From positions 2,089 through 66,088 of the forward strand of contig MNWN01000011.1 in assembly GCA_001872545.1 (NCBI GenBank): a DNA stretch of 64,000 bases, given 5' to 3'. Made by a program: the position numbers and the translations under genes. Below are positions 44,832-59,873 of this stretch, one piece after another. Every line of letters begins with the position of its first letter. Position 1 is the stretch's first letter. The notes under the pieces are model-generated. The model made no database searches and was not told the origin of the DNA. It was given only the letters and a program-made list of their open reading frames with translations. The stretch is from Parcubacteria group bacterium CG1_02_58_44 (lineage in GTDB: Bacteria; Patescibacteriota; Patescibacteriia; SG8-24).

Positions 44832-44883
44832 CTTTTTTGTATATACTTGAAAAGTTAATTGAGTTTCACATAGCCTTCTTTCC

Positions 44884-47130
44884 ATGCTTGGAAGGTATGG
44901 GTACCGCAACCGGCCCAAGGTAGGGTCTTGGTTGCATATTCGAAACGCCAGCAGAACCTTGGTTTTGGTGGCTTTTGTTTTACTCGTTTTATTTTTGCCG
45001 GAAATTGTGTCGGCTCAGCTCACCACCGGTGACGTCGGGTTGGACTTCGCCACCGCGACCGGCTTGGCCACTACAGACATCAGGGTCTTCGTCGGACGGG
45101 TGATCAACGCCTTTTTTGCCCTGCTCGGATTCATCGCCGTTCTGCTTTACGTCTACGCCGGATATCTGTGGATGACATCAACAGGCGATGCGGCCAAGGT
45201 CGACCAGGCCAAGAAGGTCATCACCAACACGACCATAGGGCTGGTCATCATGATCATGGCCTACTCGATTACGGCCTTCATTATCCAAGCCCTCACCGGA
45301 CATTCGATCGTTCCCGGTGTGGGTGACGGGGACAGCCGACGCGATAGGGGAGACATGCCCATCGGCGACCGAACCTATGAGCTCGGTAACGGAATCATCG
45401 AATACCACTATCCGGAAGTCGGACAGGTCGACGTTCCGCGCAACACGAACATATCGATAACCTTCAAGCGGCCGTTGGTCCTGTCGACCGTTTTCCGCAA
45501 CTATGATGACGCCGGAACCTACGGAACTGAAGACGATACGGTCGGCGGCGTTGCGGTGCCGGAAGTCCTTCAGCTCAATACCGACAATTTCAAGATCATC
45601 GCCGTCGCCGACTTGGGAGGGACGGACGGTGCCAGTCCGGACGAGCGGTTCAGTACTAGGTATCCGGACAGCGGAGCGCTGGTCGATCCGCCGCCTACGG
45701 TTCGGGTTACGGCCGTAAGGGTAGTTTTTGATCCGTTGGAGGGTCAGACCATCACCATCTCTCCGGCGCTTCCGATCGGCAGCCCCACCACTGATATCGC
45801 CTATCGCGTGGCCCTCAAGGGAGGCGACAACGGCATCAAGGTCTGGTGGCCTGGCGTAACGGAAGGTGCAGAACTCGTTCAGAAGAACGCCTTCAGTTCG
45901 ATGAATGCGGACGGCGGCTACTACTGGCCGTTTACGACCGGAACTATGCTTGACCTGACGCCGCCGCACATAACGTGGGTAGAGCCGACGCCGGTTATCG
46001 ATCCGGGCCGCCCAGAAAACGTAGCAGCTCGCAATCAGCTGCTGCAGATCTACTTCAACGAGGCGGTCGATCCGACCACGGTGAGCGGCATCATCGGTGA
46101 GGGCGGCGGATTCACCAATATAGAGGTAAGGGCTCGCTGCCTGCCGGACACCGACTGCGACTTTAACGATGGAGTGGATTTCACTTCCGTTTCGGGCAAG
46201 ATCTTCATAGGCAATCGCTACAGGACGGCCGAGTTCGTGCCTAGCGAACCTTGCGATGGCGTTACCGAGAACACCTGCGGCAACCAGGTTTTTTGCCTAC
46301 CGCGCAACGTCGAAATTCGTGTCCGTGCCCTAGCTGCGACGTTGAGCTCGGAACCGCCGAAGGCTTCACGTCCGGACGGCGTGTTGGACATGGTCGGCAA
46401 CTCGTTCGACGGCAACGGCAATGGTACGGCCGAGGGTCCGGAGAGCGCGGAGCGTCGGACTGACTTCAATCGTAACAGTCCGCCCGCTGCACTAGCGGGA
46501 ATCAACGATACGGCCCGGTGGACTTACCATGTCGGTGAGAGGATCGACCTCGTGCCGCCGACGATCATGGACATCGACCCCAAGAGCCCGCCGCCGATCG
46601 ATCGGGCCCATCCGGAGGGGCCGTCGAAGGTTCCGACTGATCTGCCGATAACAGTTCTGTGGGACAAGACCATGAGTGTCATGTCGATGCGGACCGGTGC
46701 GTACGACGAGGACGAGAATGCCTTCTCCGACGACCGGACGACTATTTCCCTACGTTCCAAGGAACTGGCCAAGGAAAGCCTGGATCAGGACTGTTCCGAT
46801 CCGGATGTGGCCTGTCCGTACGTCTCGTTGGATCCACCGTACTTCTTTATAGATCTGGGTGAAGGTCCGGAGGAGATCGGTGGTATCAAGAGGACCAGAA
46901 TGATGATCACACATCGTATCTTCTTCACGGCCAACGACATGGGCTACACCATGGAAGAAACGGCTTCGTGGCCCGAACGCTTGCCAGTCTATCAGCCGGT
47001 CATCGGAGCTCAGATACAGGACACGCTTCAGAACTGCTTTTTCCCAAGTGTCGGATGGAATTGTGATATGGGCGACAACAACTCTTGCTGCAATCGGGTC
47101 GGTCAGGAGGACTATTTCTGTCCGCTTTAG
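44884..47130 (+). CDS. Large secreted protein (748 aa) with an N-terminal signal peptide, a VirB2/TrbC-type pilin-like module (two TM helices), SbsA/Ig-like domains and a Cys-rich C-terminus
   Basis: SAQLTTGDVGLDFATATGLATTDIRVFVGRVINAFFALLGFIAVLLYVYAGYLWMTSTGDAAKVDQAKKVITNTTIGLVIMIMAYSITAFIIQAL is highly similar to the N-terminus of the adjacent giant protein. Downstream are Ig-like stretches (NTNISITFKRPL, LQIYFNEAVDPTTV, LPITVLWDKTMSV). Confidence 0.7.
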   Translation: MLGRYGYRNRPKVGSWLHIRNASRTLVLVAFVLLVLFLPEIVSAQLTTGDVGLDFATATGLATTDIRVFVGRVINAFFALLGFIAVLLYVYAGYLWMTSTGDAAKVDQAKKVITNTTIGLVIMIMAYSITAFIIQALTGHSIVPGVGDGDSRRDRGDMPIGDRTYELGNGIIEYHYPEVGQVDVPRNTNISITFKRPLVLSTVFRNYDDAGTYGTEDDTVGGVAVPEVLQLNTDNFKIIAVADLGGTDGASPDERFSTRYPDSGALVDPPPTVRVTAVRVVFDPLEGQTITISPALPIGSPTTDIAYRVALKGGDNGIKVWWPGVTEGAELVQKNAFSSMNADGGYYWPFTTGTMLDLTPPHITWVEPTPVIDPGRPENVAARNQLLQIYFNEAVDPTTVSGIIGEGGGFTNIEVRARCLPDTDCDFNDGVDFTSVSGKIFIGNRYRTAEFVPSEPCDGVTENTCGNQVFCLPRNVEIRVRALAATLSSEPPKASRPDGVLDMVGNSFDGNGNGTAEGPESAERRTDFNRNSPPAALAGINDTARWTYHVGERIDLVPPTIMDIDPKSPPPIDRAHPEGPSKVPTDLPITVLWDKTMSVMSMRTGAYDEDENAFSDDRTTISLRSKELAKESLDQDCSDPDVACPYVSLDPPYFFIDLGEGPEEIGGIKRTRMMITHRIFFTANDMGYTMEETASWPERLPVYQPVIGAQIQDTLQNCFFPSVGWNCDMGDNNSCCNRVGQEDYFCPL

Positions 47131-47161
47131 CCGCTTCCTTTTTTAGATCTAAGAACAGGTC

Positions 47162-50100
47162 ATGCGCATAGACCGAAAAAAATTGGTAACTGCCGCGGTG
47201 GTGGTCTTTGGTGTGGCCCTGCTCGTATTTCCGGTTTTGGCGCAGACCGATTTGGGTTTGGATTACGCAACGTCGACCGGTCTTGGTACGACCGACATCC
47301 GGACAATCATCGGCAACATCGTCAACTACTTCCTTGGGCTGTTGGGCATCATAGCCGTACTGCTGATCCTCTACGGCGGCTTTAAGTGGATGACGTCGCA
47401 GGGCAACGAGGAACAGGTCGCCGATGCGAAGAAGATCATCGTCTCCAGTGTCATCGGTTTGGCTATCATCCTGTCCGCTTTTGCCATCGCGCAATTTATT
47501 CTAAGAGCGATAATCTCTGGCACCGGATTCGAAGGTGATGTAGGGCCAGGAGGCGGACGGTGTCCGCCTGGAGAGGTCTGCGGCATACCTGGAGCCGGCT
47601 CCGGCGGGTTTAAAGTCTCCGGCGTGGTGCCGGCCGGCAACGGTCCGGGAGGTTCCGGCTGGCCCAAGAACTACGCCATTACCGTTGCCTTTAGCCATGA
47701 AGTCGCGGCGGCAACCGTTAACGGAACTTCCTTTGTGGTGGAGAGGTGCAATCCGCGGTTGTCTGGCGGTGACCCTGCTCCGTTCAATGAGAGGAATTGC
47801 AATACCGTAGTTTCGGGTACTCGGACAGTTGAGGCTAATCGAATAGTCTTTAGACCCGACGATACGCCTGGAGACTATCCTACCGATTTCGAAGAAGATT
47901 ATTGGTATCGGGTACGGGTACTCGGTGGCGACGTCACCGACGTTCGTGGTCGAATTCTGGTCTGTCCTTTCTTGCCGCCGGGTCCGGACGGTGACATTTC
48001 GTCACCACGTGCGCTGTCGAGCCTGTGCGACCGGGCCATGGCCTTCAACAACCTTCGCGATGTCGAACCTCCGACCGTCAGGATCGACTCTCCTGCTTCC
48101 GCACCAGCCTACTGCCTGGACCGGATTCGCATCCGGGCCAGGGTGGAGGACGACTTCCTTCCGTCAAGGGTCGACTTCATGTTGGATGGGGGTCTGGCTC
48201 ACTTGATGGACGCCGACGACGAGCCCCTGTTTAGCGTTATCAATGCCGCACTGGATAATCCGTTCCTGTCCGATTCGGTCTTCATCGATTCCTCGAGTTT
48301 GGCCGATGGCGAGCACACCCTGTCCGCCGTCGGTTACGACGGCGTGCCCCAGGCCAGTGAGGCGGTCGACAAGAGGTTCAGGATAAATCCGGCCCATTGC
48401 TGTGACAGCGTACTGGATGCCGAGCTGGGTGAGGATGAGATAGATTGCGGTGCGGAGTCCGGCTGTGGTGCATGTCCGGAAGGTTTGTGTACAGAAGATG
48501 CCGATTGCGCGTCGGGTCTCTGCGAATCAGGGCACTGTGTGGCACGTCCGACGATACTCGATGTCTCTCCACTGAGGGCCGGACCCGGGACGCTGGTGAC
48601 GATCAGCGGTCGGTACTTCGGCGGAACCATGGGTCAGGTAGTTTTCTTGGGTGGCGATACGGACGGGGACGGTGAGGAGGCGGGGGATGACGACGACAGG
48701 TCGGCGGCTGCCTGTTCGCCCTGGTCCTGGTCCGACGATGAGGTAGTGGTCGCAGTTCCGGACGGAGCGGTCACCGGACCGCTGCAGCTGATCACCTCAG
48801 CCGGAACTTCGGATCGCACTGACGATGATTTTGAGCCGATGATCGGTGCCTTCTCTGTCAATGACGAGGTTTTCCCCGGAATCTGCTATCTGGAACCGAG
48901 TACAGGATCGGCCGGCGATCGGTTCATCGCCCACGGTGCCGGCTTTGGGGATGCCATGGGTGCCAGCCTGATCAGGATGGGTGGGGTGAGCGCCGACGTG
49001 GCGGCCGGAGGCTGGACGGCCTCGGCCGTTTCCGCCGCCGTTCCGTCCGTGCTGGCCGAGGGTATCTATCAGGTTGGGGTGATGGTCGGCGGACTGGACG
49101 GCATCGCGACTAACCAGCTCAACTTTACCCTGCGACGCCGCGACGAGGACGTCGGACCGCGAATAATCGAGATACTCCCGTCTTCCGGTCCGGTCGGCTC
49201 CTATGTCACCCTGCGCGGCACCGGTTTTGGACGGCGTAAGGGATTGGTCAGGTTTTTTTCTTCGCCGGACGGAGTCGACGGAATCGATTCGGCCATAGCC
49301 GCCGATCCGATCTGCGACGACAACTGGCATGATAACTACATCGTCGTAAAAGTACCGGACAAGTACATTGGCGACCTGGACATCGATCTAATTCGTCATC
49401 GGGTAGAGGTCGAGACGGCCGCTCCGGCTCAAACCAGTAACCGAGTAGACTTTTTGATCGATGGCAGTCCGTTGACGCCAGGAATGTGCTCGATTACGCC
49501 TGACAACGGCAAACCGGGCATACCTGTGATCGTATCGGGCGAGGGTTTCGGGCCGGGTCCGGCCAACGTAGACGCTCCCGGTTTCGCTGGGTTTGACGGC
49601 CGTCAGCCGGAAAGTTCGCTTCGTTTTTACGTTTCTGGGGCGGCGGCTGCTCCTGGTTTGATGGACGGCTTGATTACCAAGCCGTCGACGGCCTATTTGT
49701 GGTCTAGAACATCCGTCCGATCGGCGATCCCCGGCAATCCGGCCGACCGGAGCACTTGGCCGAATTCCGGTCCGGTTTTTGTCGTGGCTCGTAATGTGGC
49801 CACCCGCAATCCGATTCCGTTCAAGATTGGCGACTGCAATGACGATGGGATTTGCGAGGAGGGGACAACCTGCTGTGCCAACGGTTCGTGCCGTGAGTCC
49901 TGCGAACCGGAGGCTCGGAACAGTAAGTTCGGCTGGTACTTCAGTACCGACGTCCTACCTACCTTGCCCGTAGTGATACAGCGATCTTCCTGCAATATGG
50001 TGGCCGGCACCATTCAAAGTCCGACACCACAACACAGGGCGACCGATGCCTGTCGCAATGCTGAGGCGGCTGTGGAGTTTAGTCAGCCGATGAATATCGG

Positions 50101-53100
50101 TTCGCTGGACGATCCTGAGTCGCTGCTCATTGAGGAATGCGGTAGCGGTCGCGATATCGACTGTGCCGACCCACCAGTTGTCGTGCCGATCGCCAGACCG
50201 GTCGGGACTGACCTGACTGCAGACGGCATGACTATTCTTTCCATCCATCCGAGCAGTTTGGTTTATCCGCCGAACGATCTCGATGATGACGAGAACGAGC
50301 CGTTTACCGGTTACTTCAAGATCGGCACTTGGTATCGGGTGACCTTGGTTTCCAAACCGGGCGAAGTCGGCATTTTCGACACGACCGGCCGGTATCTGGA
50401 CGGAGATTATGATCGACGGGCCGGTGGTAATTTCACCTGGACTTTCAGGACAAGGACCGATCCGGCGGCCTGCGCTGCCGACAGCGTCATGGTCCTGCCG
50501 TCACGCTATACGATCACCCATCAGGGCATGCCCCCGGATCCGGACATCGGATTTAGCGCCGCACTGATGAACGGAGCCAACTGCAACAGGCTGCAGTGCG
50601 TCGGCCGTGAAGGCTTTGACCTGAGATGGTCGAGCGATCCGGGTGTATTCATCAGTTTGCTTGGTGCCGGTCCGGTCGCCGGATGTCGACAGCAGGTTAC
50701 AGGTCTGCTCGAGACCCCCGTTGACGCACCGGAAAGACTGACTGTATCCCTGCGGCCGGTCGGTGAGCTGCTGGACCGCAGGAGCACTTCGGCAGTGTCC
50801 GTAGCCTTCGCCGATCCGCGGGTAGTGCGGGTCATGCCGACTGAAGGCTGCACTGAGGCCTGTGTCAACGCGGTGGTCGGCGCGGTTTTCAACATACCGA
50901 TGAGTGCGCGGTCTTTCGCCGGAAACGTCGAACTGCTGCAGTGCCGCAACTCTTCCTGCAACCCACCTTTCGTTCCGATTGAGTTTACGGTCACGTCAGT
51001 CAGGGACGATGGTATCCGTGTGCTTCCGCTCGGCGATCCCGATGCGGTCCTTCAGGTCAGGATAGAGCCGGTTCCTGATGTCGGGGAGATGCCAAGGTTG
51101 ACGCCTGATACCTTCTTTAAGGTCAGAATCAGGGGCGGAGCCGACGGGGTTCTTTCCACGAGTGACATACCGCTCACTGGACTCAACACGCCCGGCTTTT
51201 ACGAATGGAAATTTAAGACTAGGACCGACGGCAGCATCTGCGAGATCTCTCGGGCGGAGATTGTTCCGCCTAACGCCACCTTGCGTTACGTAAGCGAACG
51301 TTTCGGCCTCAGTGTCGGAGCGTACGGACCGGCTGGTGACGAGTGCAGTCCCGACGGTCAGGAGATAAACGCCTGGGGCTATGATTGGGACTGGTCGGTC
51401 GATCCGAATCCCGTCCTGGTCGGTTTCATCAGGGCTAGAGATGTTGGTTCGGAAACCGGAATAGGCATCAGAGTCGACACGAATCCAGCGCCGAGGCGCG
51501 GCTGCGACAGCCAATGTCTGTTGGTCGGCTCGACCGATGTCGTTTCGCAGTGCGGAAACACCGATCCGGCTGATCCTCGTCCGCCTAGGGATCGGGCCGA
51601 GATTGGGGAGGACTGCGACGATGGCGATATCGACGGAGGCGACGGCTGCAGCGCGAACTGCCTGGCCGAAGGTTCTGCCTTCCCGACTTGCGGCAACGGC
51701 CGGTTGGATTCGGGGGAGCTGTGTGAGGCGCTTCCCGATGGGGAAGGGACCTTAGTCTTTCCGTTGGGCTGCAAGGATCCCAATATAAATATTGATGACA
51801 GGCCTGAACTTAACGACATAGGCTGTATTTTCTTGGGGTCTACGGCTGGAGGGTCGGTCTGTGGCGACGGTATTTGGGGTGACGGCGAAGCCTGTGAGGA
51901 CGGAAACCGACGCGATGGCGATGGCTGCAGCGCGGACTGTCTTCATGAAGGGACGTTTTCTATATGTACGGACGCTACGCCGGTGGACGTAAGATGCGTC
52001 AGTCAGTGCGGCAATGCCCATATTGAGCCGGGCGAGGATCCGGACTGTGACTTGGCCGGAGGCGTCGCATTGGGTTGCGATTTGCACTCTTGCACTAAGA
52101 CCGGTTCGGAGTCAGCTCAATGTTTGAATGATCATCTAGATCCGGGGGAGGAGTGTAGAGATGGAAATACTGATAACGGCGACGGCTGCAGCAGCCGCTG
52201 TCTGCTTGAAGGATCGTCGGCCTTCTATCGGGTACCTTCCTTTTGTGGTGACGGGTTTGTCGGACAGGGCGAGCATTCGTACTGTGACGGTGACGAAGTT
52301 GAGCCCGACAGGCTGATTGACAGTCGACAGATTACGGTCGCCGGAGACTACGATTCGACCGCCGGCGCCGCTACGACGAGCGTAGTGCATGCTTCGGTCG
52401 ATCGGCTGCCGGAAGGTTCCAGGGGTAACTCACGCGTGACGCTGACCTGTAACTGCAGCTCACAGGTCAGTCCCGACGGGTACTGTTTGGGACTGCTGGA
52501 CGGAGTGCCGGCCGCCCTGCGGCCGCCGGCCGGTTTGGCCTGCGCCGATTCGGGCTGCTGCGCACCTAGACCTTACGGCAGGCTGACCTATCCGGTTGAG
52601 GGCTCGGTCGGTATCTGCCGCAACACCGCCATACACTTGGAATTCGATCAGCCCATGAACGCCACTTCAATTAGTCAGAATCTATTGATCGGCGTCGACA
52701 GTGGTCCAGACGGCTGTCCGGCGGCTTTGGACGGCGGTCCAGATGAGAGCGGGGTCATTGAAGTACCGCCCTTCCCTCCGCCCCTGCCTGGACCGTTGGC
52801 CGTTGGGCCTGGCGGCCTGCTTCGTCGGGCTTGGTCGGCTGTCGCTGCATTTTTCGGTGACCTGTTCGGCCGGCCGGCTGCAGGTCATGCCCTCGGTATC
52901 CCGCATACCCATTTCTGCTCGATCACTGGAGATGTCACCGTTAGACTGACGGACGAGTCTAGAACCGAGGTCGAGTTTATGCTCGATCACGCCTTGCCTG
53001 CGGGAACCAGAATTAGGGTTAGGGTCCAGCCGGATGCCAGGACGATCGGCGGAGTCAGAATTAATCCGGCCGGACTGACTGCTGAGTTCACCACCGGTGA

Positions 53101-56100
53101 TCTGATCTGCGCCGTCGATCGCGTGATCGTCAGTCCGGAATCGGTCTTGCTGAACAGCGTTCGGGCTCCGGACCGGCCTCTCGTGGCTCGTGGCGTGTCC
53201 GACGACCGCGGCATTCGTGTCGACGGCGATGCCGCTAGTCTGATCGTGCCGACCAGGGAATACTCTTGGTCATGGGAATGGCTGCCGCTCTCTGAGAGGC
53301 TGCCGCATGTCTCTCCGGCCGTACTGAATCCGGTCACTGTCGGAGGGCGGCAGAGCGAGCGAGCGATGGTTCGGGTCAGGGGGCGCGAAACCGGGGACGA
53401 TCCGATCGGATACGTGCCGCAGGACGGTGTTGTAAATGTTTCGGTCAATGCTGTCACCGTCAATCCTGACGGTTCCGTTGCCCGTCTGCCGGTACTCGAC
53501 GGGCTTACCGGTCTGCCCGTACCAGATGAGTTCGTACTCCCTGGTAGTTCAACGGTTACGGTCGCGCTTTGTGACGTCATCTGGCCAAAGGTTCAGACCT
53601 GCGGCGATGATGGGAGGCTGCATCTGCCTTGGGATCCGGACAATCTACTCAATCCGCTCCATGGTGAAGAATGTTCGGCTGGAGTGGAACAGTTCTGGTA
53701 TCCCTTCACGGATCCGGAAACGAAAGCCAGCTTCTACTACTGCCGTGACATCTCGGGAGGCGACGGCGACGATCTTCTGCCGGCCATCGATGAGGATTTC
53801 GTTCTCGTCCACCCGGGCGGCGACATCCTGCACGAGTATCTCTTCACCTTTGCCGGCGCTGGGGCCGGTGATGCTTGGCAGAAAGATGCCGTAGGTTTCC
53901 GGACAATGTACAACCCGAGGCATATCGGCGTGGCCGACTGGTATCGCGACCGCGGTTTCTCCGGTGCGCCGATGCCGTTCAATGTCGACGGATACGACGC
54001 CATGAAGGAAGGTCGGACCGTCTACGTCAATTCCGCGTTTCTGGACGACACCCTGCATCTTTCCACTAACGTCAACGTCTTTTCGTTCAGTGACGGGTCC
54101 GCACCGGAGACGGTCACGGTCTTCAACCAGATAATGAATCGCATCAACTTCAACCGGCAGTCGGGACTCATGGACACTTTCATCTGTCAGGACGACGGCC
54201 GGGCGGTCTTGGACGAGGGCGGAAGCGCTTTGACCTGTTCCATCGATCTCGACTGCACGACAGGCACCTGTGGTGTCCCGAAGTCGAAGCTCGTACGTGA
54301 CGTGCGACGCTGGTCGGACCTTCACACCATGAGGTCTCTTCTCATGGCCAATCGTCCGCTTCCGACATTGGGCGAAGGCACCTTCATACGCTCCAGGACG
54401 TACAGCATCTGGCCGTCATGGGGCGACGTCCTGTCCCTGTCCGTCGGACGAACCATGCCGTCGGATCCCATAAACGCATTGGCATCTTGTTCGAGCGACG
54501 GTTTTGATTCGGAGACCTGCTGGAATTCGGTCAGTCGTGAGTTCAGTTGCGGAAGCCGTTCCAGCATCTATAGGTATCAGATCTTGGCCGGTCAGGCCGA
54601 TCTGTCCGTAGACATGGAGCTGGTCGGTCCGAAATGGAAAGGCACGACCTGCATCGAGATAACGGACAGTGTTGCCTGTGGGGCCATGTCTGGCTGTGTC
54701 TGGACAGGCGCTCCACCGAGCGGTAGCTGCAACTACGAGACCGTCAGGTTCCGTGCCTATGGGATAAACGCCGGTGCCGACATGTGTACCGGAGCGGTTG
54801 AGAGTGAGGAGGCGGGCTGCGGTAACGGCATCATCAATTCCGGTGAGGCCTGCGAACTGGGAGACCTCAGGACTCAGGAAGGAGCAGACGGTATCTGTGT
54901 CGGCGGAACCGTGGAGCAGGCCTGCACGTCGGACTGTCGCGGCTGGGAGGACGTACCCGGAACCTGCCGGATCGGCTACTGCGGCGACGGACGGAGACAG
55001 GGGGCCGAAACCTGCGATGACGGACCGCTCAACGGGACGTACGGGCACTGCAACGGCATCTGCAGAGGTTCGACCTTTTACTGTGGCGATGGTCTGTCCC
55101 ATCCCAGTGAGCTGTGCGATTGCGGCAGCTTGAATGGAAGTTATGCGGTCAACGCGGTTATTGCGCCATCGGGTGGGGTTCGTGCTTGTAGCACTGAAGA
55201 ACCGCGCACTGGGGCTAGTTTCGCTTCCTGTTCCTGGGATTGCCGTGGTCCGGCTCCGCACTGCGGCGACGGCATCATCAACGGCGTCGAGCAGTGCGAT
55301 GGCGGTTCTGAGGAGAGTCGTGGCGTTTGTCGGCGACCGGCTGACGACCCGCTGCATCCGTCGGGAGGCACCTGCACGGCAGACGCCGACTGCAATCTCG
55401 CGGGCGGGGAGCGCTGCGTGACCTGTCTGACTGTCGAACAGAGGTTCCGTCGGGCCTGCAACCCGAATAACGTCACTTCGGCCGATGACGAAAGAGATGG
55501 AGTGCCCAATCAGTCCTGTCACTGGAGTGCCTGGTCGTGTACCGCCCCCGGACGTTGCGGCAACGGCGTGACCGAGACCGGCGAGCAGTGCGACGACGGC
55601 AACGACGAGGATAACGATGCCTGCACCAGCGCCTGCATCAGCAACGTCTGCGGCGACGGATTCGTGAACGCGGCCGGCGGCGAGCTGTGCGACAGCGGCG
55701 GAAGGAACAACACTCCCTGCGTGCCCGAGTACGGGCATACCTGCAACTACTGCACTTCGGCCTGCCGATTGGGTACGGTTTCTGGCGGCTACTGCGGCGA
55801 CGGCCTGCTCCAGAACGCCAGTTCGGAGATACCGGGTCCCGAACAGTGCGACACGCACGGTGTGGTCATCGGTGACGGTTGGGTCTGCGTCAGCACCAGG
55901 CCCAAGGACAGGAGCTTCGGTACGCAGACCGGCTACGGCATCTGCTCGCTGAGCGGATGTGGCTACTCCTGTGCGGACAGAGATTCGGAGCTGTGCCAGA
56001 ATGATGCACTCGATGGCAATTCAGACCTCATACTTCCCGAAAGTTTTGAGGTAAGCATGGCGTCCAGGCCTGAATCCTGCGCCTTTATGGATTACGTTCC

Positions 56101-57238
56101 CTTGCGCATGGCTCCGCCGGTTGGAGGGCGGAGTCCGGGCAGCGAGCCCAGGTCGCTTTTCGAGTTCTGTTTGGATCGGCAGCGTCTGGTCGGCGGCAGT
56201 TCGGGAGAGCCTCCGTTGGCCAGACTGTCTAATAATTGCGATTCGGACGACGACAACGACGGCGTTCCGGACGAATTGGACTGTGGCCCCACAGATCCGT
56301 CGGTCAGGCCGGAGTATCGGATTCCGGGCACCACTCTGGTGGTTCCGGCCGGAGATCAAGAATGCACCGGCGACGGCAACTGCAACGGAGATTTTGGAGA
56401 TCTTCCGCCGTATCTGCATAAGAAGGTTGACATGGTGTTCGTCATCGACGTGACAAGGTCGATGAACAGCATCATCGACTCCCTGATCGACTCCCTGAGT
56501 GATTTCGTCACTAATCTTAGCGGTGCCAGAGGAATAGATCTCCAGTTTGGTTTCGTGACTGTAGGGCAGGCTGAGACTTTAACGCTCAGCATGATGAAGT
56601 CCCATCCGGTTCGTCCCGCCCTAGGGCCGTACATGTTTGCCCAGCTCGACGACATCGGTTCGTTTGGCGACAGCTTGCAGGCAATGAGGGACAATTGCTG
56701 GAGTAATGACGGTCACCATACTGACTTATGCTCTGTCGGCAAATATGAACCCCTTTATGCCGCAGCTTATGCCCTAATGAGACCCGGATCGGTCAGCTGC
56801 GGTCCGGAGGACGGCTGTGACCCGGCATTGGACCAGGTGTTGGATTACGGCATCGCATGGCGGGACGATGCCCAGCCGTATGTGGTGATAGTCGGCGATG
56901 AACCGCCGCCGGTGGGCGCGACATGGAGTGGTGACGATATGACCGGACGGGAGGAAGCTGAGGGGCTCCTGAGGTATATTGATCTTAATCGCGTCGCCGA
57001 TGCGGCCAAGGACTGTACCTTGCCCGGATGCGCTGACGGCGGCTATGTGGAGCTTTTCGTGATCAGTCGGCGGGTCAACAGGGATTACTGGTTGGATGTC
57101 CTGCCTACGACAGAAGACGGTTCGCGTCTGACGGCCGAACAGCGTTACATCAGTTTTGATGACGGCGGCGGGACCAATGGGCTCAACGGCGAGGCCTTGG
57201 TCGCCAGCATATTTCAGTACATCTGCCCTGCTCCCTGA
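47162..57238 (+). CDS. Giant multidomain surface protein (3358 aa): signal peptide + VirB2/TrbC-like pilin module + SbsA/Ig-like + several IPT/TIG-like domains + Myxococcus-type Cys-rich repeats (DUF4215-like) + Asp-rich calcium-binding-type segment + C-terminal von Willebrand factor A domain
   Basis: The N-terminus LAQTDLGLDYATSTGLGTTDIRTIIGNIVNYFLGLLGIIAVLLILYGGFKWMTSQGNEEQVADAKKIIVSSVIGLAIILSAFAIAQFIL. IPT-like PTILDVSPLRAGPGTLVTISGRYFGG, PRIIEILPSSGPVGSYVTLRGTGFG, PGMCSITPDNGKPGIPVIVSGEGFG. Cys repeats GEDCDDGDIDGGDGCSANCLAEG, GEACEDGNRRDGDGCSADCLHEG, GEECRDGNTDNGDGCSSRCLLEG, GEQCDDGNDEDNDACTSAC. The segment CDSDDDNDGVPDELDCGPTDPS. The VWA/MIDAS start VDMVFVIDVTRSMNSIIDSLIDSL. Single uninterrupted ORF of 10,077 nt. 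Confidence 0.8.
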   Translation: MRIDRKKLVTAAVVVFGVALLVFPVLAQTDLGLDYATSTGLGTTDIRTIIGNIVNYFLGLLGIIAVLLILYGGFKWMTSQGNEEQVADAKKIIVSSVIGLAIILSAFAIAQFILRAIISGTGFEGDVGPGGGRCPPGEVCGIPGAGSGGFKVSGVVPAGNGPGGSGWPKNYAITVAFSHEVAAATVNGTSFVVERCNPRLSGGDPAPFNERNCNTVVSGTRTVEANRIVFRPDDTPGDYPTDFEEDYWYRVRVLGGDVTDVRGRILVCPFLPPGPDGDISSPRALSSLCDRAMAFNNLRDVEPPTVRIDSPASAPAYCLDRIRIRARVEDDFLPSRVDFMLDGGLAHLMDADDEPLFSVINAALDNPFLSDSVFIDSSSLADGEHTLSAVGYDGVPQASEAVDKRFRINPAHCCDSVLDAELGEDEIDCGAESGCGACPEGLCTEDADCASGLCESGHCVARPTILDVSPLRAGPGTLVTISGRYFGGTMGQVVFLGGDTDGDGEEAGDDDDRSAAACSPWSWSDDEVVVAVPDGAVTGPLQLITSAGTSDRTDDDFEPMIGAFSVNDEVFPGICYLEPSTGSAGDRFIAHGAGFGDAMGASLIRMGGVSADVAAGGWTASAVSAAVPSVLAEGIYQVGVMVGGLDGIATNQLNFTLRRRDEDVGPRIIEILPSSGPVGSYVTLRGTGFGRRKGLVRFFSSPDGVDGIDSAIAADPICDDNWHDNYIVVKVPDKYIGDLDIDLIRHRVEVETAAPAQTSNRVDFLIDGSPLTPGMCSITPDNGKPGIPVIVSGEGFGPGPANVDAPGFAGFDGRQPESSLRFYVSGAAAAPGLMDGLITKPSTAYLWSRTSVRSAIPGNPADRSTWPNSGPVFVVARNVATRNPIPFKIGDCNDDGICEEGTTCCANGSCRESCEPEARNSKFGWYFSTDVLPTLPVVIQRSSCNMVAGTIQSPTPQHRATDACRNAEAAVEFSQPMNIGSLDDPESLLIEECGSGRDIDCADPPVVVPIARPVGTDLTADGMTILSIHPSSLVYPPNDLDDDENEPFTGYFKIGTWYRVTLVSKPGEVGIFDTTGRYLDGDYDRRAGGNFTWTFRTRTDPAACAADSVMVLPSRYTITHQGMPPDPDIGFSAALMNGANCNRLQCVGREGFDLRWSSDPGVFISLLGAGPVAGCRQQVTGLLETPVDAPERLTVSLRPVGELLDRRSTSAVSVAFADPRVVRVMPTEGCTEACVNAVVGAVFNIPMSARSFAGNVELLQCRNSSCNPPFVPIEFTVTSVRDDGIRVLPLGDPDAVLQVRIEPVPDVGEMPRLTPDTFFKVRIRGGADGVLSTSDIPLTGLNTPGFYEWKFKTRTDGSICEISRAEIVPPNATLRYVSERFGLSVGAYGPAGDECSPDGQEINAWGYDWDWSVDPNPVLVGFIRARDVGSETGIGIRVDTNPAPRRGCDSQCLLVGSTDVVSQCGNTDPADPRPPRDRAEIGEDCDDGDIDGGDGCSANCLAEGSAFPTCGNGRLDSGELCEALPDGEGTLVFPLGCKDPNINIDDRPELNDIGCIFLGSTAGGSVCGDGIWGDGEACEDGNRRDGDGCSADCLHEGTFSICTDATPVDVRCVSQCGNAHIEPGEDPDCDLAGGVALGCDLHSCTKTGSESAQCLNDHLDPGEECRDGNTDNGDGCSSRCLLEGSSAFYRVPSFCGDGFVGQGEHSYCDGDEVEPDRLIDSRQITVAGDYDSTAGAATTSVVHASVDRLPEGSRGNSRVTLTCNCSSQVSPDGYCLGLLDGVPAALRPPAGLACADSGCCAPRPYGRLTYPVEGSVGICRNTAIHLEFDQPMNATSISQNLLIGVDSGPDGCPAALDGGPDESGVIEVPPFPPPLPGPLAVGPGGLLRRAWSAVAAFFGDLFGRPAAGHALGIPHTHFCSITGDVTVRLTDESRTEVEFMLDHALPAGTRIRVRVQPDARTIGGVRINPAGLTAEFTTGDLICAVDRVIVSPESVLLNSVRAPDRPLVARGVSDDRGIRVDGDAASLIVPTREYSWSWEWLPLSERLPHVSPAVLNPVTVGGRQSERAMVRVRGRETGDDPIGYVPQDGVVNVSVNAVTVNPDGSVARLPVLDGLTGLPVPDEFVLPGSSTVTVALCDVIWPKVQTCGDDGRLHLPWDPDNLLNPLHGEECSAGVEQFWYPFTDPETKASFYYCRDISGGDGDDLLPAIDEDFVLVHPGGDILHEYLFTFAGAGAGDAWQKDAVGFRTMYNPRHIGVADWYRDRGFSGAPMPFNVDGYDAMKEGRTVYVNSAFLDDTLHLSTNVNVFSFSDGSAPETVTVFNQIMNRINFNRQSGLMDTFICQDDGRAVLDEGGSALTCSIDLDCTTGTCGVPKSKLVRDVRRWSDLHTMRSLLMANRPLPTLGEGTFIRSRTYSIWPSWGDVLSLSVGRTMPSDPINALASCSSDGFDSETCWNSVSREFSCGSRSSIYRYQILAGQADLSVDMELVGPKWKGTTCIEITDSVACGAMSGCVWTGAPPSGSCNYETVRFRAYGINAGADMCTGAVESEEAGCGNGIINSGEACELGDLRTQEGADGICVGGTVEQACTSDCRGWEDVPGTCRIGYCGDGRRQGAETCDDGPLNGTYGHCNGICRGSTFYCGDGLSHPSELCDCGSLNGSYAVNAVIAPSGGVRACSTEEPRTGASFASCSWDCRGPAPHCGDGIINGVEQCDGGSEESRGVCRRPADDPLHPSGGTCTADADCNLAGGERCVTCLTVEQRFRRACNPNNVTSADDERDGVPNQSCHWSAWSCTAPGRCGNGVTETGEQCDDGNDEDNDACTSACISNVCGDGFVNAAGGELCDSGGRNNTPCVPEYGHTCNYCTSACRLGTVSGGYCGDGLLQNASSEIPGPEQCDTHGVVIGDGWVCVSTRPKDRSFGTQTGYGICSLSGCGYSCADRDSELCQNDALDGNSDLILPESFEVSMASRPESCAFMDYVPLRMAPPVGGRSPGSEPRSLFEFCLDRQRLVGGSSGEPPLARLSNNCDSDDDNDGVPDELDCGPTDPSVRPEYRIPGTTLVVPAGDQECTGDGNCNGDFGDLPPYLHKKVDMVFVIDVTRSMNSIIDSLIDSLSDFVTNLSGARGIDLQFGFVTVGQAETLTLSMMKSHPVRPALGPYMFAQLDDIGSFGDSLQAMRDNCWSNDGHHTDLCSVGKYEPLYAAAYALMRPGSVSCGPEDGCDPALDQVLDYGIAWRDDAQPYVVIVGDEPPPVGATWSGDDMTGREEAEGLLRYIDLNRVADAAKDCTLPGCADGGYVELFVISRRVNRDYWLDVLPTTEDGSRLTAEQRYISFDDGGGTNGLNGEALVASIFQYICPAP

Positions 57239-57244: not shown

Positions 57245-57769
57245 ATGAACAAAAATAATCTTATTTTGATAGTTCTGGGTGCAGCGGCGGTTTTGGCCGT
57301 CGGTATGGCCGTGTTTGCCGTCTTGCGTAATCGGCAGCCGGCCGTGAGTCCACTGGACCGGTTCGACGAACATGGTGCCGTGGAGGTTCCGGTGGGCATC
57401 GACGACGACGGCGGACCGATTGAGGAGACAAGGGCAATCTGCGGCGACGGCATCTGTACTGCGGCCGAGTCCGTAGACATCTGCTGGTCGGATTGCGTCG
57501 ACTACGGTTCGTTCAGCGACATTAGCCTGACGAACCTGTCCGCCGGTCAGGTGGAGATTACCTGGAAGACCTCCAAGCCCATGACTTCGGCCGTAGATTA
57601 CGGCTTCAGCGAAAGCTACGAACTCGGTTCGGTGTCCGATTCCCAGCTGTTGACCGACCACAGACTGTTGACGGTCAGACTGAACGGCAGTGAATTTTTC
57701 TTCAGGCTGCGGGGGACCGACGGGGAGGGCAACGAGGAATCCTTCTCTAGTTTGGGCAACGAAAGATAA
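57245..57769 (+). CDS. Small single-pass membrane protein with a Cys motif ([19 protein letters not shown]) and an FN3-like segment; paralog 1 of 3
   Basis: N-terminal [24 protein letters not shown], then the CGDGxC...CxxDC motif shared with the next two genes and with repeats in the giant protein. Confidence 0.6.
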
Positions 57770-57777
57770 TCGCCCTT

Positions 57778-58590
57778 TTGCAGGGTAACCAGAATCGCAT
57801 TCATATGTTCGAAGAGCAGAACGAGCCGGTAGACATATTTTCGGAAACGGAACCGGCCAAGGACGGCGGCATCAGTCCGTCGGTCGGCAGCCAACCTCCG
57901 GTTATGGGCGGATCGCCGCCGTCTTCCGGAACTTTACCTACACCGGTGTCTGGCATAACTCCCCAGATAGACATCGCCGCATCTAGGGGTCCGTCCAAGA
58001 TCCTGTTCGTCGTAATTTTTCTGCTGCTGGTCGGTGCAGTCGGCGTCGGTATCTGGTATTTCGTTCTTAGTGGCGACGGTGCAGTTCCGGTCGGGAACGA
58101 GCCGGCCGACGTCAATTCGAACGATTCCGGTTCGGCGATAGACGTTCAGATTCCGGAGCCGGAGAATCGATCGCTTTGCGGTAACGGAGTCTGCGATCTG
58201 GATGAGGACAAGTTCTCATGTCCGGCGGACTGTCCGCTGATTTCGCCCGTTTGCGGCGACGGCATCTGTCAGGCCGACGAGGGCAGCTTGGACTGTCCGG
58301 CCGACTGCCAGGCCACTCCCGACGAGCCGGTCATGCCGCCGGAACCGGCGAATCAGCCGCTCGACACGGACGGCGACGGCCTGAGTGACGCCGAGGAGAC
58401 GGCACTCGGCACCAATCCGCAGATGGCCGACACTGACGCCGACGGGCTGACGGACCGGGAGGAACTGCGTCAGTACTCGACCGATCCGACCAGTCCGGAC
58501 TCGGACGGCGACGGCTATATCGACGGCGAGGAGGTGTGGGCCGGTTACGACCCCAACGGCCCAGGCAAGCTGCTTAACTTGCCCCAGTAG
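57778..58590 (+). CDS. Single-pass membrane protein with two CGxGxC..CPADC Cys motifs and Asp-rich TSP3/calcium-binding-like repeats; paralog 2 of 3
   Basis: [128 protein letters not shown]. Confidence 0.6.
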
Positions 58591-58613
58591 CTGAGGGCTA
58601 TTCGATAGGTCCT

Positions 58614-59873
58614 ATGGCAGACGAAAAGAAAATTTCCGACGGTTTGGACAGGCCCTCCGGCACCTTAACGTCTTCGACGTCCGACGCCGACGAGCCGGAG
58701 ATTTTCGTAATGCCGGAGGAATTCTATGGGGCCGCCGTCAAGCCCAAGCCGGAAGCGGCAGTGTCGTCAGCCTCACCTGCGGTTTCGTCGCCTGCAGCCG
58801 TCTCGACCGTCAAGACGGGCAAAGGTTTCACCGTGGCGATCGTCACCTTAGCCGCGATCTTGGTCGTTGCCTTGGGAGTCGCGGTCTATTTCGTGTTTTT
58901 CTCCGGTCCGAAGTCCGTCTGCGGTAACAACCTCTGCGAGTCAGGCGAAACGTTTGCGGCCTGCCCGAACGACTGCGAACCGCCGCCGTCGGTCTGCGGC
59001 GACGGTGACTGTGAGAGTTCCGAGAGCTACCTGTCCTGCCCGTCCGATTGCCGCCAGCCAGATGCCGTCTGCGGGGACAGACAATGCAACGGGGACGAGA
59101 CTGCCGAATCTTGTCCGGAGGACTGCCGGCCGCCGGCTGAGTGCGGCGACGGACGATGCGAAGCCGACCGTGGCGAGAGCTATGATTCCTGCCGGAGCGA
59201 CTGCCAGCCGCCTGAGCCGGTGCCGTCAGTCGATACCGACAGCGACGGTCTGACTGACGTCGAGGAGACGAGTATCTACGGCAGCGACCCCAATGGCACC
59301 AACAGCGACGGCGACAGTTTCGTTGACCTGAACGAGGTGATCAACCTTTTCGATCCGGCCAAGAAGGAACCGGCCCGCCTGATCGACAGTCCCGGAATCT
59401 CCGCCTATCGGAATGAGGATTACGGATTCGAGATTTTCTGCCCTACAGCTTGGGGCAAGAGTGACCTGCCGTCCGAGCAGTCGGTGCGCTTTACTTCGCC
59501 GACCGGCGAGACGGTTAAGGTGACCGTCTTTATCAAGCAGCCGGAGACGACCTTGGACGATTGGTTACGGTCCTCTTCGGTCAGCGGACTGTCGGCAGTC
59601 GGACAGGCCGGCCGGTCTATCAACCGCCATGGCTACGAGCAGGTGACCATGTCGGACCGTCGGACAGTGCTGATTTCGGACGGCACAAATGTAGCCCTGC
59701 TGCGTTACGACCTGGAAGGCCAGCTCGAGGTGCGCTATCGGGTGACGCTGTCCGTCATGGCCAACAGCTTGACTTTCGTGACCAAGCCCTCTCCGTCAGC
59801 CGAGACCTTGTCGGGAACCGGGTCGGTTCTGCCCGTATCTGAATCGTCGGATGCAGAATCGGATCGTCCTTAG
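58614..59873 (+). CDS. Single-pass membrane protein with four CGxxxC..CPxDC Cys motifs, Asp-rich calcium-binding-like repeats and a C-terminal globular domain; paralog 3 of 3
   Basis: TM VAIVTLAAILVVALGVAVYFVFF. CGNNLCESGETFAACPNDCEPPPSVCGDGDCESSESYLSCPSDCRQPDAVCGDRQCNGDETAESCPEDCRPPAECGDGRCEADRGESYDSCRSDCQPP. DTDSDGLTDVEETSIYGSDPNGTNSDGDSFVDLNEV. Confidence 0.6.
   Translation: MADEKKISDGLDRPSGTLTSSTSDADEPEIFVMPEEFYGAAVKPKPEAAVSSASPAVSSPAAVSTVKTGKGFTVAIVTLAAILVVALGVAVYFVFFSGPKSVCGNNLCESGETFAACPNDCEPPPSVCGDGDCESSESYLSCPSDCRQPDAVCGDRQCNGDETAESCPEDCRPPAECGDGRCEADRGESYDSCRSDCQPPEPVPSVDTDSDGLTDVEETSIYGSDPNGTNSDGDSFVDLNEVINLFDPAKKEPARLIDSPGISAYRNEDYGFEIFCPTAWGKSDLPSEQSVRFTSPTGETVKVTVFIKQPETTLDDWLRSSSVSGLSAVGQAGRSINRHGYEQVTMSDRRTVLISDGTNVALLRYDLEGQLEVRYRVTLSVMANSLTFVTKPSPSAETLSGTGSVLPVSESSDAESDRP

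What the first reader, a model, noticed from the sequence alone, without database searches (positions are those of the whole stretch)
44884..57238. Tandem paralogs sharing the pilin-like N-terminal module (748-aa and 3358-aa proteins), with a third diverged copy 21 kb upstream
The N-terminal ~130 aa of the 44884 and 47162 proteins align almost residue for residue. Both have signal peptide ...AQ, then TGLxTTDIRxxxGxxxNxFxxLLGxIAVLLxxYxGxxWMTSxGxxxxVxxAKKxIxxxxIGLxIxxxAxxIxxFI. A third protein (21974-23944) carries the same module, ...[52 protein letters not shown], embedded after a Cys-rich leader. Expansion of one membrane module onto different extracellular payloads suggests a modular family of pilin-anchored surface proteins rather than a conjugative T4SS. 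No VirB4/VirB6/VirB10/VirD4 genes occur in the window. Whether a cognate secretion or assembly machinery exists elsewhere is unknown.
Basis: partly seen in the sequence, partly recalled or inferred. Interest (0 to 1): 0.65.

Follow-up and report, generated by a model that had tools for sequence, protein, structure and literature searches.

The report
Pilin-anchored giant surface proteins, conserved cassette
Two neighbouring genes, plus a third 21 kb away, in an uncultured ultra-small bacterium (Patescibacteria, class ABY1) fuse the small membrane "pilin" unit of a type IV secretion system to very large outward-facing protein domains, and the gene pair sits at the same chromosomal spot in at least 80 related species, which makes them good candidates for how these bacteria attach to other cells.

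Summary
The 748-aa and 3358-aa proteins share a 119-aa N-terminal module (45% identity, E=1e-27). The 656-aa protein carries a diverged copy (26-31% identity, E=4e-6 to 1e-9). There is no fourth copy in the window.

The module is the VirB2/TrbC-type T4SS pilin domain of Patescibacteria (Pfam PF18895, also PF04956 and NCBIfam NF045849). It consists of a cleavable signal peptide and a two-helix membrane hairpin with a short basic loop. Reversed and shuffled controls do not match these profiles.

Its closest relatives are free-standing 115-150-aa pilins that occur in tandem arrays. Here the module is joined by a flexible linker to large cysteine-rich, Ig-like ectodomains.

The pair is a vertically inherited core cassette: SPase I-HisRS-YqeY-[pilin-Ig]-[pilin-giant]-TSP3 proteins-YbeY-DAGK-FtsA. 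It was found in all 80 species representatives returned, which span 34-70% GC.

The hairpin is the best-conserved part of the 748-aa family. The two hairpins of one genome resemble each other more than their orthologues do. The last ~450 aa of the giant are lineage-specific.

No T4SS machinery is on the 75-kb contig. A close relative does have VirB4.

The most likely function is pilin-anchored adhesins, possibly displayed on a pilus. This is a new variant of a known kind.

The parts
44884..47130 (+). p748: signal peptide (aa 1-44), VirB2-type pilin hairpin (aa ~45-138, nt 45016-45297), disordered Gly/Asp linker (aa ~141-162), then a beta-rich Ig-like (Big_5) ectodomain ending in conserved cysteines
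   Evidence: Pfam gives PF18895 at 26.4 bits (cut-off 26.6) and Big_5. NCBIfam NF045849 scores 27.9 bits, below its cut-off of 40. The N-terminus is 45% identical to p3358, E=1e-27. The AF2 model has pLDDT 81.6, with helices 15-36, 66-97 and 103-138, low confidence at 141-162, and beta structure over 163-720. Structure searches return only Ig-like hits. Full-length orthologues number 78 proteins and 80 loci.
47162..57238 (+). p3358: signal peptide (aa 1-27), VirB2-type pilin hairpin (aa ~28-120, nt 47243-47521), Gly-rich linker, Big_5/Big_7/TIG Ig-like domains (aa ~164-740), further Big_5-like domains and DUF4215 Cys-rich repeats (aa ~1560-2830), and a 148-Cys ectodomain
   Evidence: Pfam gives PF18895 at 46.5-49.2 bits, PF04956 TrbC at 28.1-32.4 bits (cut-off 27.9), plus Big_5, Big_7, TIG and DUF4215. 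NCBIfam NF045849 scores 41.9 bits (cut-off 40). The AF2 model of the module shows helices 5-27, 33-38, 46-78 and 83-120. Only three hydrophobic segments exist, all N-terminal. A giant orthologue follows the p748 orthologue in 73 of 80 loci.
55859..57235 (+). Lineage-specific C-terminal ~450 aa of p3358, the end furthest from the hairpin in the sequence; no family assigned
   Evidence: Only 3-13% of 35 complete giant orthologues align here, against 85-100% for aa 1-2400. Against the 80%-identical L007 orthologue this stretch drops to 48-74% identity, compared with 75-92% elsewhere. There are no Pfam, NCBIfam or PDB sequence hits.
21974..23944 (+). p656: signal peptide, ~55-aa Cys-rich N-terminal extension, VirB2-type pilin hairpin (aa 103-172, nt 22280-22489), then a ~470-aa Cys-rich ectodomain (46 Cys in total)
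   Evidence: Pfam PF18895 scores 33.6 bits. BLASTP to the other two modules gives E=1e-9 and 4e-6. The family is large: 15,278 representatives at E<=1e-3, and the best 150 are 86-891 aa (nearly all over 228 aa, one an 86-aa fragment), with the module at variable offsets. The DsbA-p656-UvrA synteny is conserved in L090 and L091.
21189..21968 (+). DsbA-like thioredoxin-fold protein immediately upstream of p656; probable oxidative-folding partner for the Cys-rich ectodomains (inferred)
   Evidence: Pfam hits are Thioredoxin_4 and DSBA. The adjacency is conserved in two relatives at 36-46% identity.
41488..42480 (+). Signal peptidase I, three genes upstream of the cassette. The ORF start is probably over-extended, because tRNA-Val lies at 41659-41735. 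It is a candidate enzyme for cleaving the pilin-type signal peptides (inferred)
   Evidence: Pfam Peptidase_S26, E=9e-44, over aa 147-306. tRNA-Val is found inside the ORF. SPase I lies upstream of the cassette in 58 of 80 loci.
57245..59873 (+). Three tightly spaced co-directional genes (174, 270 and 419 aa) encoding single-pass membrane proteins with CGDGxC...CxxDC motifs and TSP3 calcium-binding repeats; conserved downstream neighbours of the giant
   Evidence: The translations are. Pfam finds TSP3_bac. Among the 80 loci, the o270 homologue follows the giant in 19 and the o419 homologue in 9; in most of the others the 10-kb flank ends inside the giant. The gaps between genes are 6, 8 and 23 bp.

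Best explanation
The three genes encode Sec-exported proteins whose signal peptides look like signal peptidase I substrates. The N-terminal domain is a genuine VirB2/TrbC-family T4SS pilin: two antiparallel membrane helices joined by a short basic loop on the cytoplasmic side. The much larger remainder lies outside the cell. It is joined to the second helix by a flexible linker, and in p656 there is also an N-terminal extension.

The outside part is built from Ig-like Big_5/TIG domains and disulfide-rich repeats. In the giant it ends in a fast-evolving, lineage-specific stretch. These proteins are therefore pilin-anchored surface adhesins of an ABY1-class Patescibacterium.

Shown here: the domain identity, the topology elements, the conserved cassette and its synteny, sequence-specific conservation of the hairpin, within-genome co-variation of the two hairpins, and the variable C-terminal end.

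Inferred: the hairpin does more than anchor. The fusion proteins probably enter the same assembly pathway as the free-standing short pilins of these genomes, either as minor, basal or tip subunits of a T4SS-type pilus or as a hetero-oligomer in the membrane. In solved VirB2 pili both termini point outward, so the ectodomains would be displayed for contact with a host or partner cell.
For: Domain identity. PF18895 scores 46.5-49.2 bits for p3358 and 33.6 for p656. PF04956 and NF045849 are above their curated cut-offs for p3358. Reversed and shuffled controls are negative. The nearest relatives of the p3358 module are 115-150-aa stand-alone pilins, up to 70% identical (P0013; the best full-length ones 64-67%), which sit in tandem arrays of 4-5.

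Topology. There are exactly three N-terminal hydrophobic segments and none elsewhere. AF2 predicts a helical hairpin, a disordered linker and a confident beta-rich ectodomain. The loops read WMTSxG...AKK / ARE.

Geometry. [quoted passage not shown]

Core cassette. Three of three look-ups and 73 of 80 species-representative loci show [pilin-Ig][pilin-giant]. Five of the remaining loci end at the contig edge, and two have a divergent hairpin. YqeY is upstream in 68, HisRS in 61 and SPase I in 58.

The hairpin is not a generic anchor. Mean pairwise identity in the p748 family is 0.53 (TM1), 0.48 (loop) and 0.54 (TM2), against 0.25 for the signal peptide, 0.24 for the linker and 0.31-0.44 for the ectodomain.

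Co-variation. In 2139 of 2701 genome-pair quartets the same-genome pairing of the two modules wins, against 506 for orthology. At a GC difference of 1% or less the counts are still 127 against 51. Synonymous sites are often saturated.

Variable end.

Oxidative folding. A DsbA gene is conserved next to p656.

Machinery. A relative with an 84%-identical p748 is scored VirB4-positive, and 2,417 of 3,035 Patescibacteria assemblies have VirB4 (PMC12102498).
Against: - No T4SS machinery gene lies on the 75-kb contig. The rest of this genome could not be searched.
- One ABY1 MAG with the cassette (CG2_30_45_37) is scored VirB4-negative, although at 619 kb it is a partial genome.
- No VirB2-family pilin with a large fused domain has been characterised, as far as I know. 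An ectodomain of 600-3200 aa on every subunit could not pack into a VirB2-type helical tube, so at most sparse incorporation is plausible (inference).
- Fold searches with the hairpin return only generic helical hairpins. A profile of the module finds nothing among PDB sequences. Homology to solved VirB2 or TraA therefore rests on Pfam and NCBIfam profiles alone.
- The within-genome similarity of the two hairpins could come from episodic gene conversion between tandem genes and need not reflect co-assembly.
- Adhesion itself is inferred from domain types only.
Confidence: 0.7

Rival explanations
1. The hairpin is only an anchor. On this view the pilin hairpin has been exapted purely as a stable two-helix membrane anchor. 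The proteins never leave the membrane or meet a T4SS, and the giant and its partner form a cell-surface coat or fibril layer (S-layer-like) of these wall-poor ultra-small cells.
Against: The hairpin is the most conserved part of the protein and is much more conserved than the equally hydrophobic signal peptide. It keeps the extramembrane motifs of the free pilins, GLxxxDxR and WMT[AS]GG..KV..AKK. The two hairpins of one genome co-vary. Five loci insert a short free pilin between the two genes. The lineage-specific C-terminal end fits partner recognition better than a uniform coat.
Confidence: 0.25
2. These are ordinary major pilins of a conjugative T4SS carried on an integrated mobile element.
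For: The Pfam and NCBIfam names (T4SS pilin, TrbC/VirB2, Mycoplasma ICE pilin-like protein).
Against: The proteins are 748-3358 aa, against about 120 aa for the free pilins. There is no VirB4, VirD4, relaxase or integrase nearby. Gene order with HisRS, YqeY, YbeY and FtsA is the same across 80 species spanning 34-70% GC, which indicates vertical inheritance. Patescibacteria T4SSs mostly lack relaxases (PMC12102498).
Confidence: 0.02
3. The shared N-terminus is a chance or compositional resemblance between signal peptides and TM segments, or the 10-kb ORF is not a real gene.
For: Hydrophobic segments do inflate similarity scores. High-GC DNA also carries long spurious ORFs; the window has many overlapping ORFs of 100 aa or more on both strands.
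Against: Pairwise E=1e-27. The reversed and shuffled controls are negative. The loop and extramembrane motifs are conserved. The giant ORF is conserved collinearly over about 2400 aa in 35 complete orthologues from genomes of 34-70% GC.
Confidence: 0.01

Closest known systems
VirB2-like pilin arrays of Patescibacteria T4SS (PF18895/PF04956; Quinonero-Coronel et al. 2025, PMC12102498; the essential pilin array of Ca. Southlakia epibionticum, Wang et al. 2023, PMC10633639)
   Same: The Pfam domain is the same. The genes are tandem, chromosomal and divergent paralogues: 45% identity here, against a published array average of 25% and maximum of 54%. The phylum is the same, and the close relatives of the module are exactly such short pilins.
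   Different: The published arrays are described as small pilins and are often near virB4. Here each pilin domain carries a 600-3200-aa ectodomain. The pair sits at a fixed housekeeping locus with no T4SS gene within the 75-kb contig. [quoted passage not shown]
VirB2/TraA/TrbC major pilins of Gram-negative conjugative and effector T4SS (T-pilus, F-pilus, RP4)
   Same: An SPase I-type signal peptide, a U-shaped two-helix hairpin and a basic residue in the inter-helix loop. The termini face outward in the filament, so a C-terminal payload is geometrically displayable.
   Different: Those pilins have mature lengths of about 64-120 aa, polymerise as the sole major subunit with phospholipid, and are encoded within the T4SS operon. 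None of these three features holds here. Fold and PDB-sequence searches could not single them out.
Mbov_0395-family pilin-like conjugal transfer protein of Mycoplasma ICEs (NCBIfam NF045849)
   Same: It is a profile match above the curated cut-off for the p3358 module (41.9 against 40 bits). It is a monoderm-type system, which agrees with the reported MPF-FATA ancestry of the Patescibacteria T4SS.
   Different: It is an 80-position small protein carried on a mobile element, with no ectodomain. p748 and p656 score below the cut-off.
Surface adhesins of Gram-positive T4SS and cell walls (for example PrgB and LPXTG/sortase-anchored Ig-domain adhesins)
   Same: Long strings of Ig-like domains that present a variable end, and a proposed role in cell-cell contact.
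   Different: Those are anchored by a C-terminal LPXTG motif and sortase. Here the anchor is an N-terminal pilin hairpin and there is no C-terminal hydrophobic segment.

Membership tests
T4SS_pilin (PF18895) / TrbC-VirB2 (PF04956) pilin superfamily | Profile match at or above the curated score | tested here: met
   p3358 scores 46.5-49.2 bits on PF18895 (cut-off 26.6) and 28.1-32.4 on PF04956 (cut-off 27.9). p656 scores 33.6 on PF18895. p748 scores 26.4, just under the cut-off, but is 45% identical to p3358. Shuffled and reversed controls reach at most 10.3 bits.
T4SS_pilin (PF18895) / TrbC-VirB2 (PF04956) pilin superfamily | Cleavable SPase I-type signal peptide followed by two hydrophobic helices joined by a short basic loop | tested here: met
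   There are three hydrophobic segments per protein. The loops read WMTSTGDAAKVDQAKK, WMTSQGNEEQVADAKK and [16 protein letters not shown]. AF2 models show the hairpins. Cleavage itself was not tested.
T4SS_pilin (PF18895) / TrbC-VirB2 (PF04956) pilin superfamily | Small single-domain protein (about 100-150-aa precursor) | tested here: not met
   The proteins are 748, 3358 and 656 aa. The nearest relatives of the module are 90-217 aa.
T4SS_pilin (PF18895) / TrbC-VirB2 (PF04956) pilin superfamily | Encoded with, or in the same genome as, VirB4 and the other T4SS assembly proteins | tested here: inconclusive
   None is in the window or in the rest of the 74,973-bp contig. The other contigs of GCA_002322515.1 could not be reached. 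The relative RIFOXYC2_FULL_47_19 is scored VirB4 'Yes', and the partial MAG CG2_30_45_37 is scored 'No'.
T4SS_pilin (PF18895) / TrbC-VirB2 (PF04956) pilin superfamily | Fold match to solved VirB2/TraA pilins | tested here: inconclusive
T4SS_pilin (PF18895) / TrbC-VirB2 (PF04956) pilin superfamily | Polymerises into an extracellular pilus | not testable with these tools
   This needs microscopy or biochemistry.
Patescibacteria VirB2 arrays (PMC12102498) | Two to eleven pilin-domain genes in tandem, or separated by one gene, with low mutual identity | tested here: met
   The two genes are 31 bp apart and their modules are 45% identical. Five related loci add a short pilin between them.
Type IV pilus / Tad pilins (class III signal peptide, PilD/TadV-processed) | Short basic leader ending in Gly, followed by a single long hydrophobic N-terminal helix with Glu at +5 | tested here: not met
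   The sequences show classical tripartite signal peptides ending VSA|Q, LAQ|T and AQA|T, followed by a two-helix hairpin. No T4P family was hit.
LPXTG/sortase-anchored adhesins | C-terminal LPXTG motif, hydrophobic segment and basic tail | tested here: not met
   The C-termini are ...DYFCPL and ...FQYICPAP, and there is no hydrophobic segment outside the N-terminal 140 aa.

The most novel reading that the evidence does not exclude
ABY1 Patescibacteria build a T4SS-derived surface organelle in which VirB2-type pilin domains serve as the polymerising or docking unit for giant adhesins. On this reading the two co-evolving hairpins of the conserved cassette, and sometimes a short pilin between them, assemble together with the free pilins. 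The filament or its base would then carry a ~3200-aa stalk whose variable far end recognises the host. That would be a class of pilus-displayed adhesin with no counterpart in characterised T4SSs, and it could be the missing adhesin of the Patescibacteria T4SS.
Probability: 0.25. Interest if true: 0.8.

Novelty: new variant of a known kind. Interest (0 to 1): 0.58.

Why it matters
All cultivated Patescibacteria live attached to other microbes. In the one species tested genetically, the T4SS and its pilin array are essential, yet what the system does and how the cells hold on to a host are unknown. A recent survey reported no T4SS-associated adhesins in the phylum (PMC12102498).

A pilin domain fused to very large, disulfide-rich Ig-domain proteins, fixed at one chromosomal site across a whole class and ending in a fast-evolving stretch, gives named candidates for that attachment function. 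It also offers a simple handle for experiments: tag or delete the ectodomain, swap the hairpin, or look for the proteins on filaments.

It further shows that automatic 'pilin' annotation and counts of 'VirB2 homologues' in these genomes mix small structural pilins with proteins up to about 3,500 aa that probably do something different.

Tried and rejected
1. A homologue search with the full 3358-aa protein failed on time-out. A search with the C-terminal 858 aa was swamped by DUF4215 Cys-repeat proteins of Myxococcota, and no listed protein was longer than about 1,500 aa. The giants themselves could therefore not be retrieved that way. I used genomic loci instead.

2. Fold searches were uninformative. 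The hairpin matches thousands of generic helical hairpins. The p748 ectodomain gives only generic Ig-like hits such as LdtMt2, CopC, alpha-2-macroglobulin MG domains and SbsC.

3. On reading the sequence I suspected a vWA domain at the C-terminus of p3358 (motif VFVIDVTRSM). Pfam, NCBIfam and a PDB sequence search gave no support, so I dropped the assignment.

4. The promoter and terminator scan of 41000-60500 found no more sites than the shuffles did, so no operon boundaries can be drawn from it.

5. I looked for the window's genome in the published VirB4 table. It is not listed, and the stored table is truncated.

6. Recent gene conversion as the sole cause of hairpin co-variation is not supported. 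Third-position identity at shared four-fold codons averages 0.41 and is as low as 0.12-0.21 in loci with 61-73% amino-acid identity. Older conversion events cannot be excluded.

7. GC-driven amino-acid convergence as the cause is rejected, because the signal holds for genome pairs within 1% GC.

8. The figure of 532 tblastn-confirmed stretches is not a count of p748 orthologues. One of the two search patterns lies in the hairpin and also picks up other pilins. Only the 80 returned loci were checked as full-length orthologues.
Full report
**Source and setting**

The window is part of contig DCOV01000002.1 (74,973 bp) of MAG GCA_002322515.1 and has 58% GC. Pfam scans of about 45 ORFs show an ordinary streamlined chromosome. 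They include glycosyltransferases, TrpRS/TyrRS, RNase J, an SBP_bac_5 protein, DsbA, UvrA, L19, RelA/SpoT, topoisomerase I, DprA, EngA, an LCP protein, signal peptidase I, HisRS, YqeY, YbeY, DAGK, FtsA and FtsZ. No VirB4, VirB6, VirB10, VirB11, VirD4, relaxase or integrase is present in the window or in the remaining ~9 kb of the contig. The lineage is GTDB class ABY1 (Uhrbacteria and relatives), judged from named relatives and from the class column of a published genome table.

**Checking the observation**

The three ORFs exist as described.
- p748 against p3358: 45% identity over 119 aa, E=1e-27, confined to the N-terminus.
- p656 against p3358: 31% over 74 aa, E=1e-9. p656 against p748: 26% over 80 aa, E=4e-6.
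- An HMM of the three modules run against the six-frame translation finds no further copy.
- Reversed and window-shuffled versions, which keep composition and hydrophobic runs, do not hit the pilin profiles. The best is 10.3 bits with E=0.76, against 26-49 bits for the real sequences.

**What the module is**

Pfam assigns it to PF18895 (T4SS_pilin): p3358 scores 46.5-49.2 bits, p656 33.6, and p748 26.4 against a cut-off of 26.6. p3358 also passes PF04956 (TrbC/VirB2). NCBIfam NF045849, the pilin-like conjugal transfer protein of Mycoplasma ICEs, matches p3358 above its cut-off.

Each protein has exactly three hydrophobic segments, all within the first ~180 aa: a signal peptide and two helices. 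The signal peptides are SPase I-type (VSA|Q, LAQ|T, AQA|T). The inter-helix loop is short and carries basic residues (AKK, ARE).

AF2 models show the hairpin (helices 46-78 and 83-120 in p3358; 66-97 and 103-138 in p748). A low-confidence linker follows, and in p748 a confident beta-rich ectodomain (pLDDT 81.6, pTM 0.75).

Fold searches cannot tell this hairpin from any other helical hairpin, and a profile of the module finds nothing among PDB sequences. The link to solved VirB2 or TraA therefore rests on the curated profiles only.

**Relatives of the module**

The 120 best database relatives of the p3358 module are all short (90-217 aa) stand-alone PF18895 proteins of Patescibacteria, up to 70% identical. 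Where I looked, they lie in tandem arrays of four or five, with no VirB4 within 10 kb. This matches the published picture. VirB2-like pilins occur in 1,948 VirB4-positive Patescibacteria assemblies, and there are 441 arrays of 2-11 genes with a mean identity of 25% (PMC12102498). The array of Ca. Southlakia is essential (PMC10633639).

**The fusions are conserved families**

Full-length relatives of p748 (600-860 aa, PF18895 plus Big_5) number 78 in the word-indexed search, down to 26% identity.

A scan of one genome per species returned the tool's maximum of 80 loci with full-length orthologues. They come from Uhrbacteria, Falkowbacteria, Komeilibacteria and unnamed or mislabelled MAGs, and include three complete chromosomes.

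In 73 of these 80 loci the orthologue is followed directly by a second ORF with a pilin module. Complete copies of that ORF are 1,550-3,460 aa, most of them 3,000-3,460; one stop-to-stop frame reaches 3,559 aa but runs off the end of its locus. Five of the other loci end at the contig edge. Two (L052, L061) have a divergent hairpin below the HMM threshold and a giant split into two genes. Five loci insert a short pilin (125-171 aa) between the two genes.

Gene order is conserved: Pth-EngA-LCP | SPase I-HisRS-YqeY-[pilin-Ig]-[pilin-giant]-TSP3 protein-o419-YbeY-DAGK-FtsA. YqeY is present in 68, HisRS in 61 and SPase I in 58 of the 80 loci. The loci span 34-70% GC.

p656 is also a family. An exhaustive phmmer search found 15,278 representatives at E<=1e-3. 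Nearly all of the best 150 are 228-891 aa (one is an 86-aa fragment), and the module sits at variable offsets. Its DsbA-p656-UvrA context recurs in two relatives. One of them is the same assembly that also carries the cassette.

All three genes are therefore vertically inherited core genes, not cargo of a mobile T4SS.

**Anatomy of the payloads**

- p748 carries Big_5-type Ig-like domains and conserved C-terminal cysteines.
- p3358 carries Big_5, Big_7, three to four TIG domains, further Big_5-like domains, DUF4215 Cys-rich repeats and 148 cysteines.
- Against 35 complete giant orthologues, aa 1-2400 align in 85-100% of them and aa 2400-2900 in about 68%. The last ~450 aa align in only 3-13%.
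- Even against an 80%-identical orthologue, that final stretch falls to 48-74% identity. It has no family assignment.
- Three tightly spaced downstream genes encode single-pass membrane proteins with Cys motifs and TSP3 repeats.

**Is the hairpin only an anchor?**

Two results argue that it is under sequence-specific constraint.

First, within the p748 family it is the most conserved region, with mean pairwise identity of 0.53, 0.48 and 0.54 for helix 1, the loop and helix 2. The equally hydrophobic signal peptide scores 0.25, the linker 0.24 and the ectodomain 0.31-0.44. The fused and free forms also share the same motifs outside the membrane.

Second, the two hairpins of one genome resemble each other more than they resemble their orthologues. 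Same-locus identity averages 0.55, against 0.47 and 0.49 within each orthologue group. In quartets of two genomes, same-genome pairing wins 2139 times, orthology 506 and the cross pairing 55. For genome pairs within 1% GC the counts are 127, 51 and 4.

Synonymous sites between the two hairpins are often saturated. The pattern therefore reflects either protein-level co-evolution or old gene-conversion events followed by purifying selection. I cannot separate these two.

**Mechanism**

Established knowledge: VirB2-family propilins are inserted by Sec and cleaved by signal peptidase I. They wait in the membrane as hairpins and are extracted by the VirB4-dependent machine. In the T-pilus the chain is U-shaped, with both termini on the outward side. 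A basic loop residue contacts phospholipid in the lumen (bioRxiv 10.1101/2022.09.25.509369).

Applied here, this topology puts the C-terminal payloads, and the N-terminal Cys-rich extension of p656, outside the cell. That agrees with their disulfide-rich Ig-like composition and with the conserved DsbA neighbour.

I commit to pilin-anchored surface adhesins as the function (confidence about 0.7). Within that, I favour the view that the hairpin still engages pilin-type partners, so the proteins could be sparse, basal or tip subunits of a T4SS pilus, or members of a membrane hetero-oligomer. My probability that they are truly displayed on a pilus is about 0.25. A payload of this size on every subunit could not pack into a VirB2-type tube (inference). 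The main rival, about 0.25, is a pure membrane anchor for a surface coat.

**What remains open**

I could not search the other contigs of this genome for VirB4. The nearest relative in the published table (RIFOXYC2_FULL_47_19, whose p748 orthologue is 84% identical) is VirB4-positive. A 619-kb partial MAG with the cassette is scored negative. Overall, 2,417 of 3,035 Patescibacteria assemblies have VirB4.

**Novelty**

The pilin domain and tandem pilin arrays in Patescibacteria are known. NCBI already names some of these 750-aa proteins 'pilin'.

Several things appear in none of the papers I could search:
- the fusion of the domain to giant ectodomains;
- the class-wide fixed cassette;
- the co-varying hairpins;
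- the variable C-terminal end.

One of those papers states that no adhesins were detected. The library lacks most subscription journals, so I claim only that I found no description. I rate this a new variant of a known kind, of moderate to good interest.

Noticed in passing
window 41488-42480 and 41659-41735: tRNA-Val(CAC) lies inside the 330-aa signal peptidase I ORF, which is also the deposited 328-aa gene call. The Peptidase_S26 match starts only at aa 147, and orthologues are 205-219 aa. The real start is therefore probably downstream of the tRNA and the annotated N-terminus is spurious.
   Followed up: partly
window 10449-10917 (+): Bacterial RNase P RNA class A (169.9 bits) lies here. 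The 173-aa ORF on the opposite strand (10447-10968), which has no family hit, is therefore probably not a gene.
   Followed up: partly
window 32159-32234 (+): A tRNA-Ile with anticodon TAT (UAU). From memory, most bacteria read AUA with a lysidine-modified CAU tRNA, so this would be an uncommon decoding solution.
   Followed up: no
L007 (JGI Ga0208246_1000139) compared with window 34000-57000: This relative has identical gene order, and its p748 and giant orthologues are 85% and 80% identical in protein. Its locus is 46.6% GC against 58.8% here, a large shift in base composition between close relatives.
   Followed up: no
L039, L048, L062, L066, L072 (between the two cassette genes): Five species carry an extra free-standing short pilin gene (125-171 aa) between the pilin-Ig gene and the giant. 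This links the cassette to ordinary pilin arrays.
   Followed up: partly
L052 11597-19240 and L061 11493-19216: This is a variant cassette. The second gene has a strongly diverged hairpin (LIYGAVLWRN...) below the HMM threshold. The giant is split into two ORFs of about 1650 and about 890 aa, and the second ORF has its own signal peptide.
   Followed up: partly
L092 11297-20427 (contig DCOV01000002.1 beyond the window's end): NrdR and pyruvate kinase occur twice in opposite orientation (NrdR-PK-PPDK ... PK-HtrA-NrdR) near the contig end. This could be a real inverted duplication or an assembly artefact.
   Followed up: no
window 28023-29843 (+): A 606-aa protein with an N-terminal signal or anchor segment and no Pfam family; another uncharacterised exported protein.
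   Followed up: no
L004-L006: The arrays of 4-5 short free pilins in related Uhrbacteria-like contigs lie directly after one or two SBP_bac_1 solute-binding protein genes, not next to T4SS genes.
   Followed up: no
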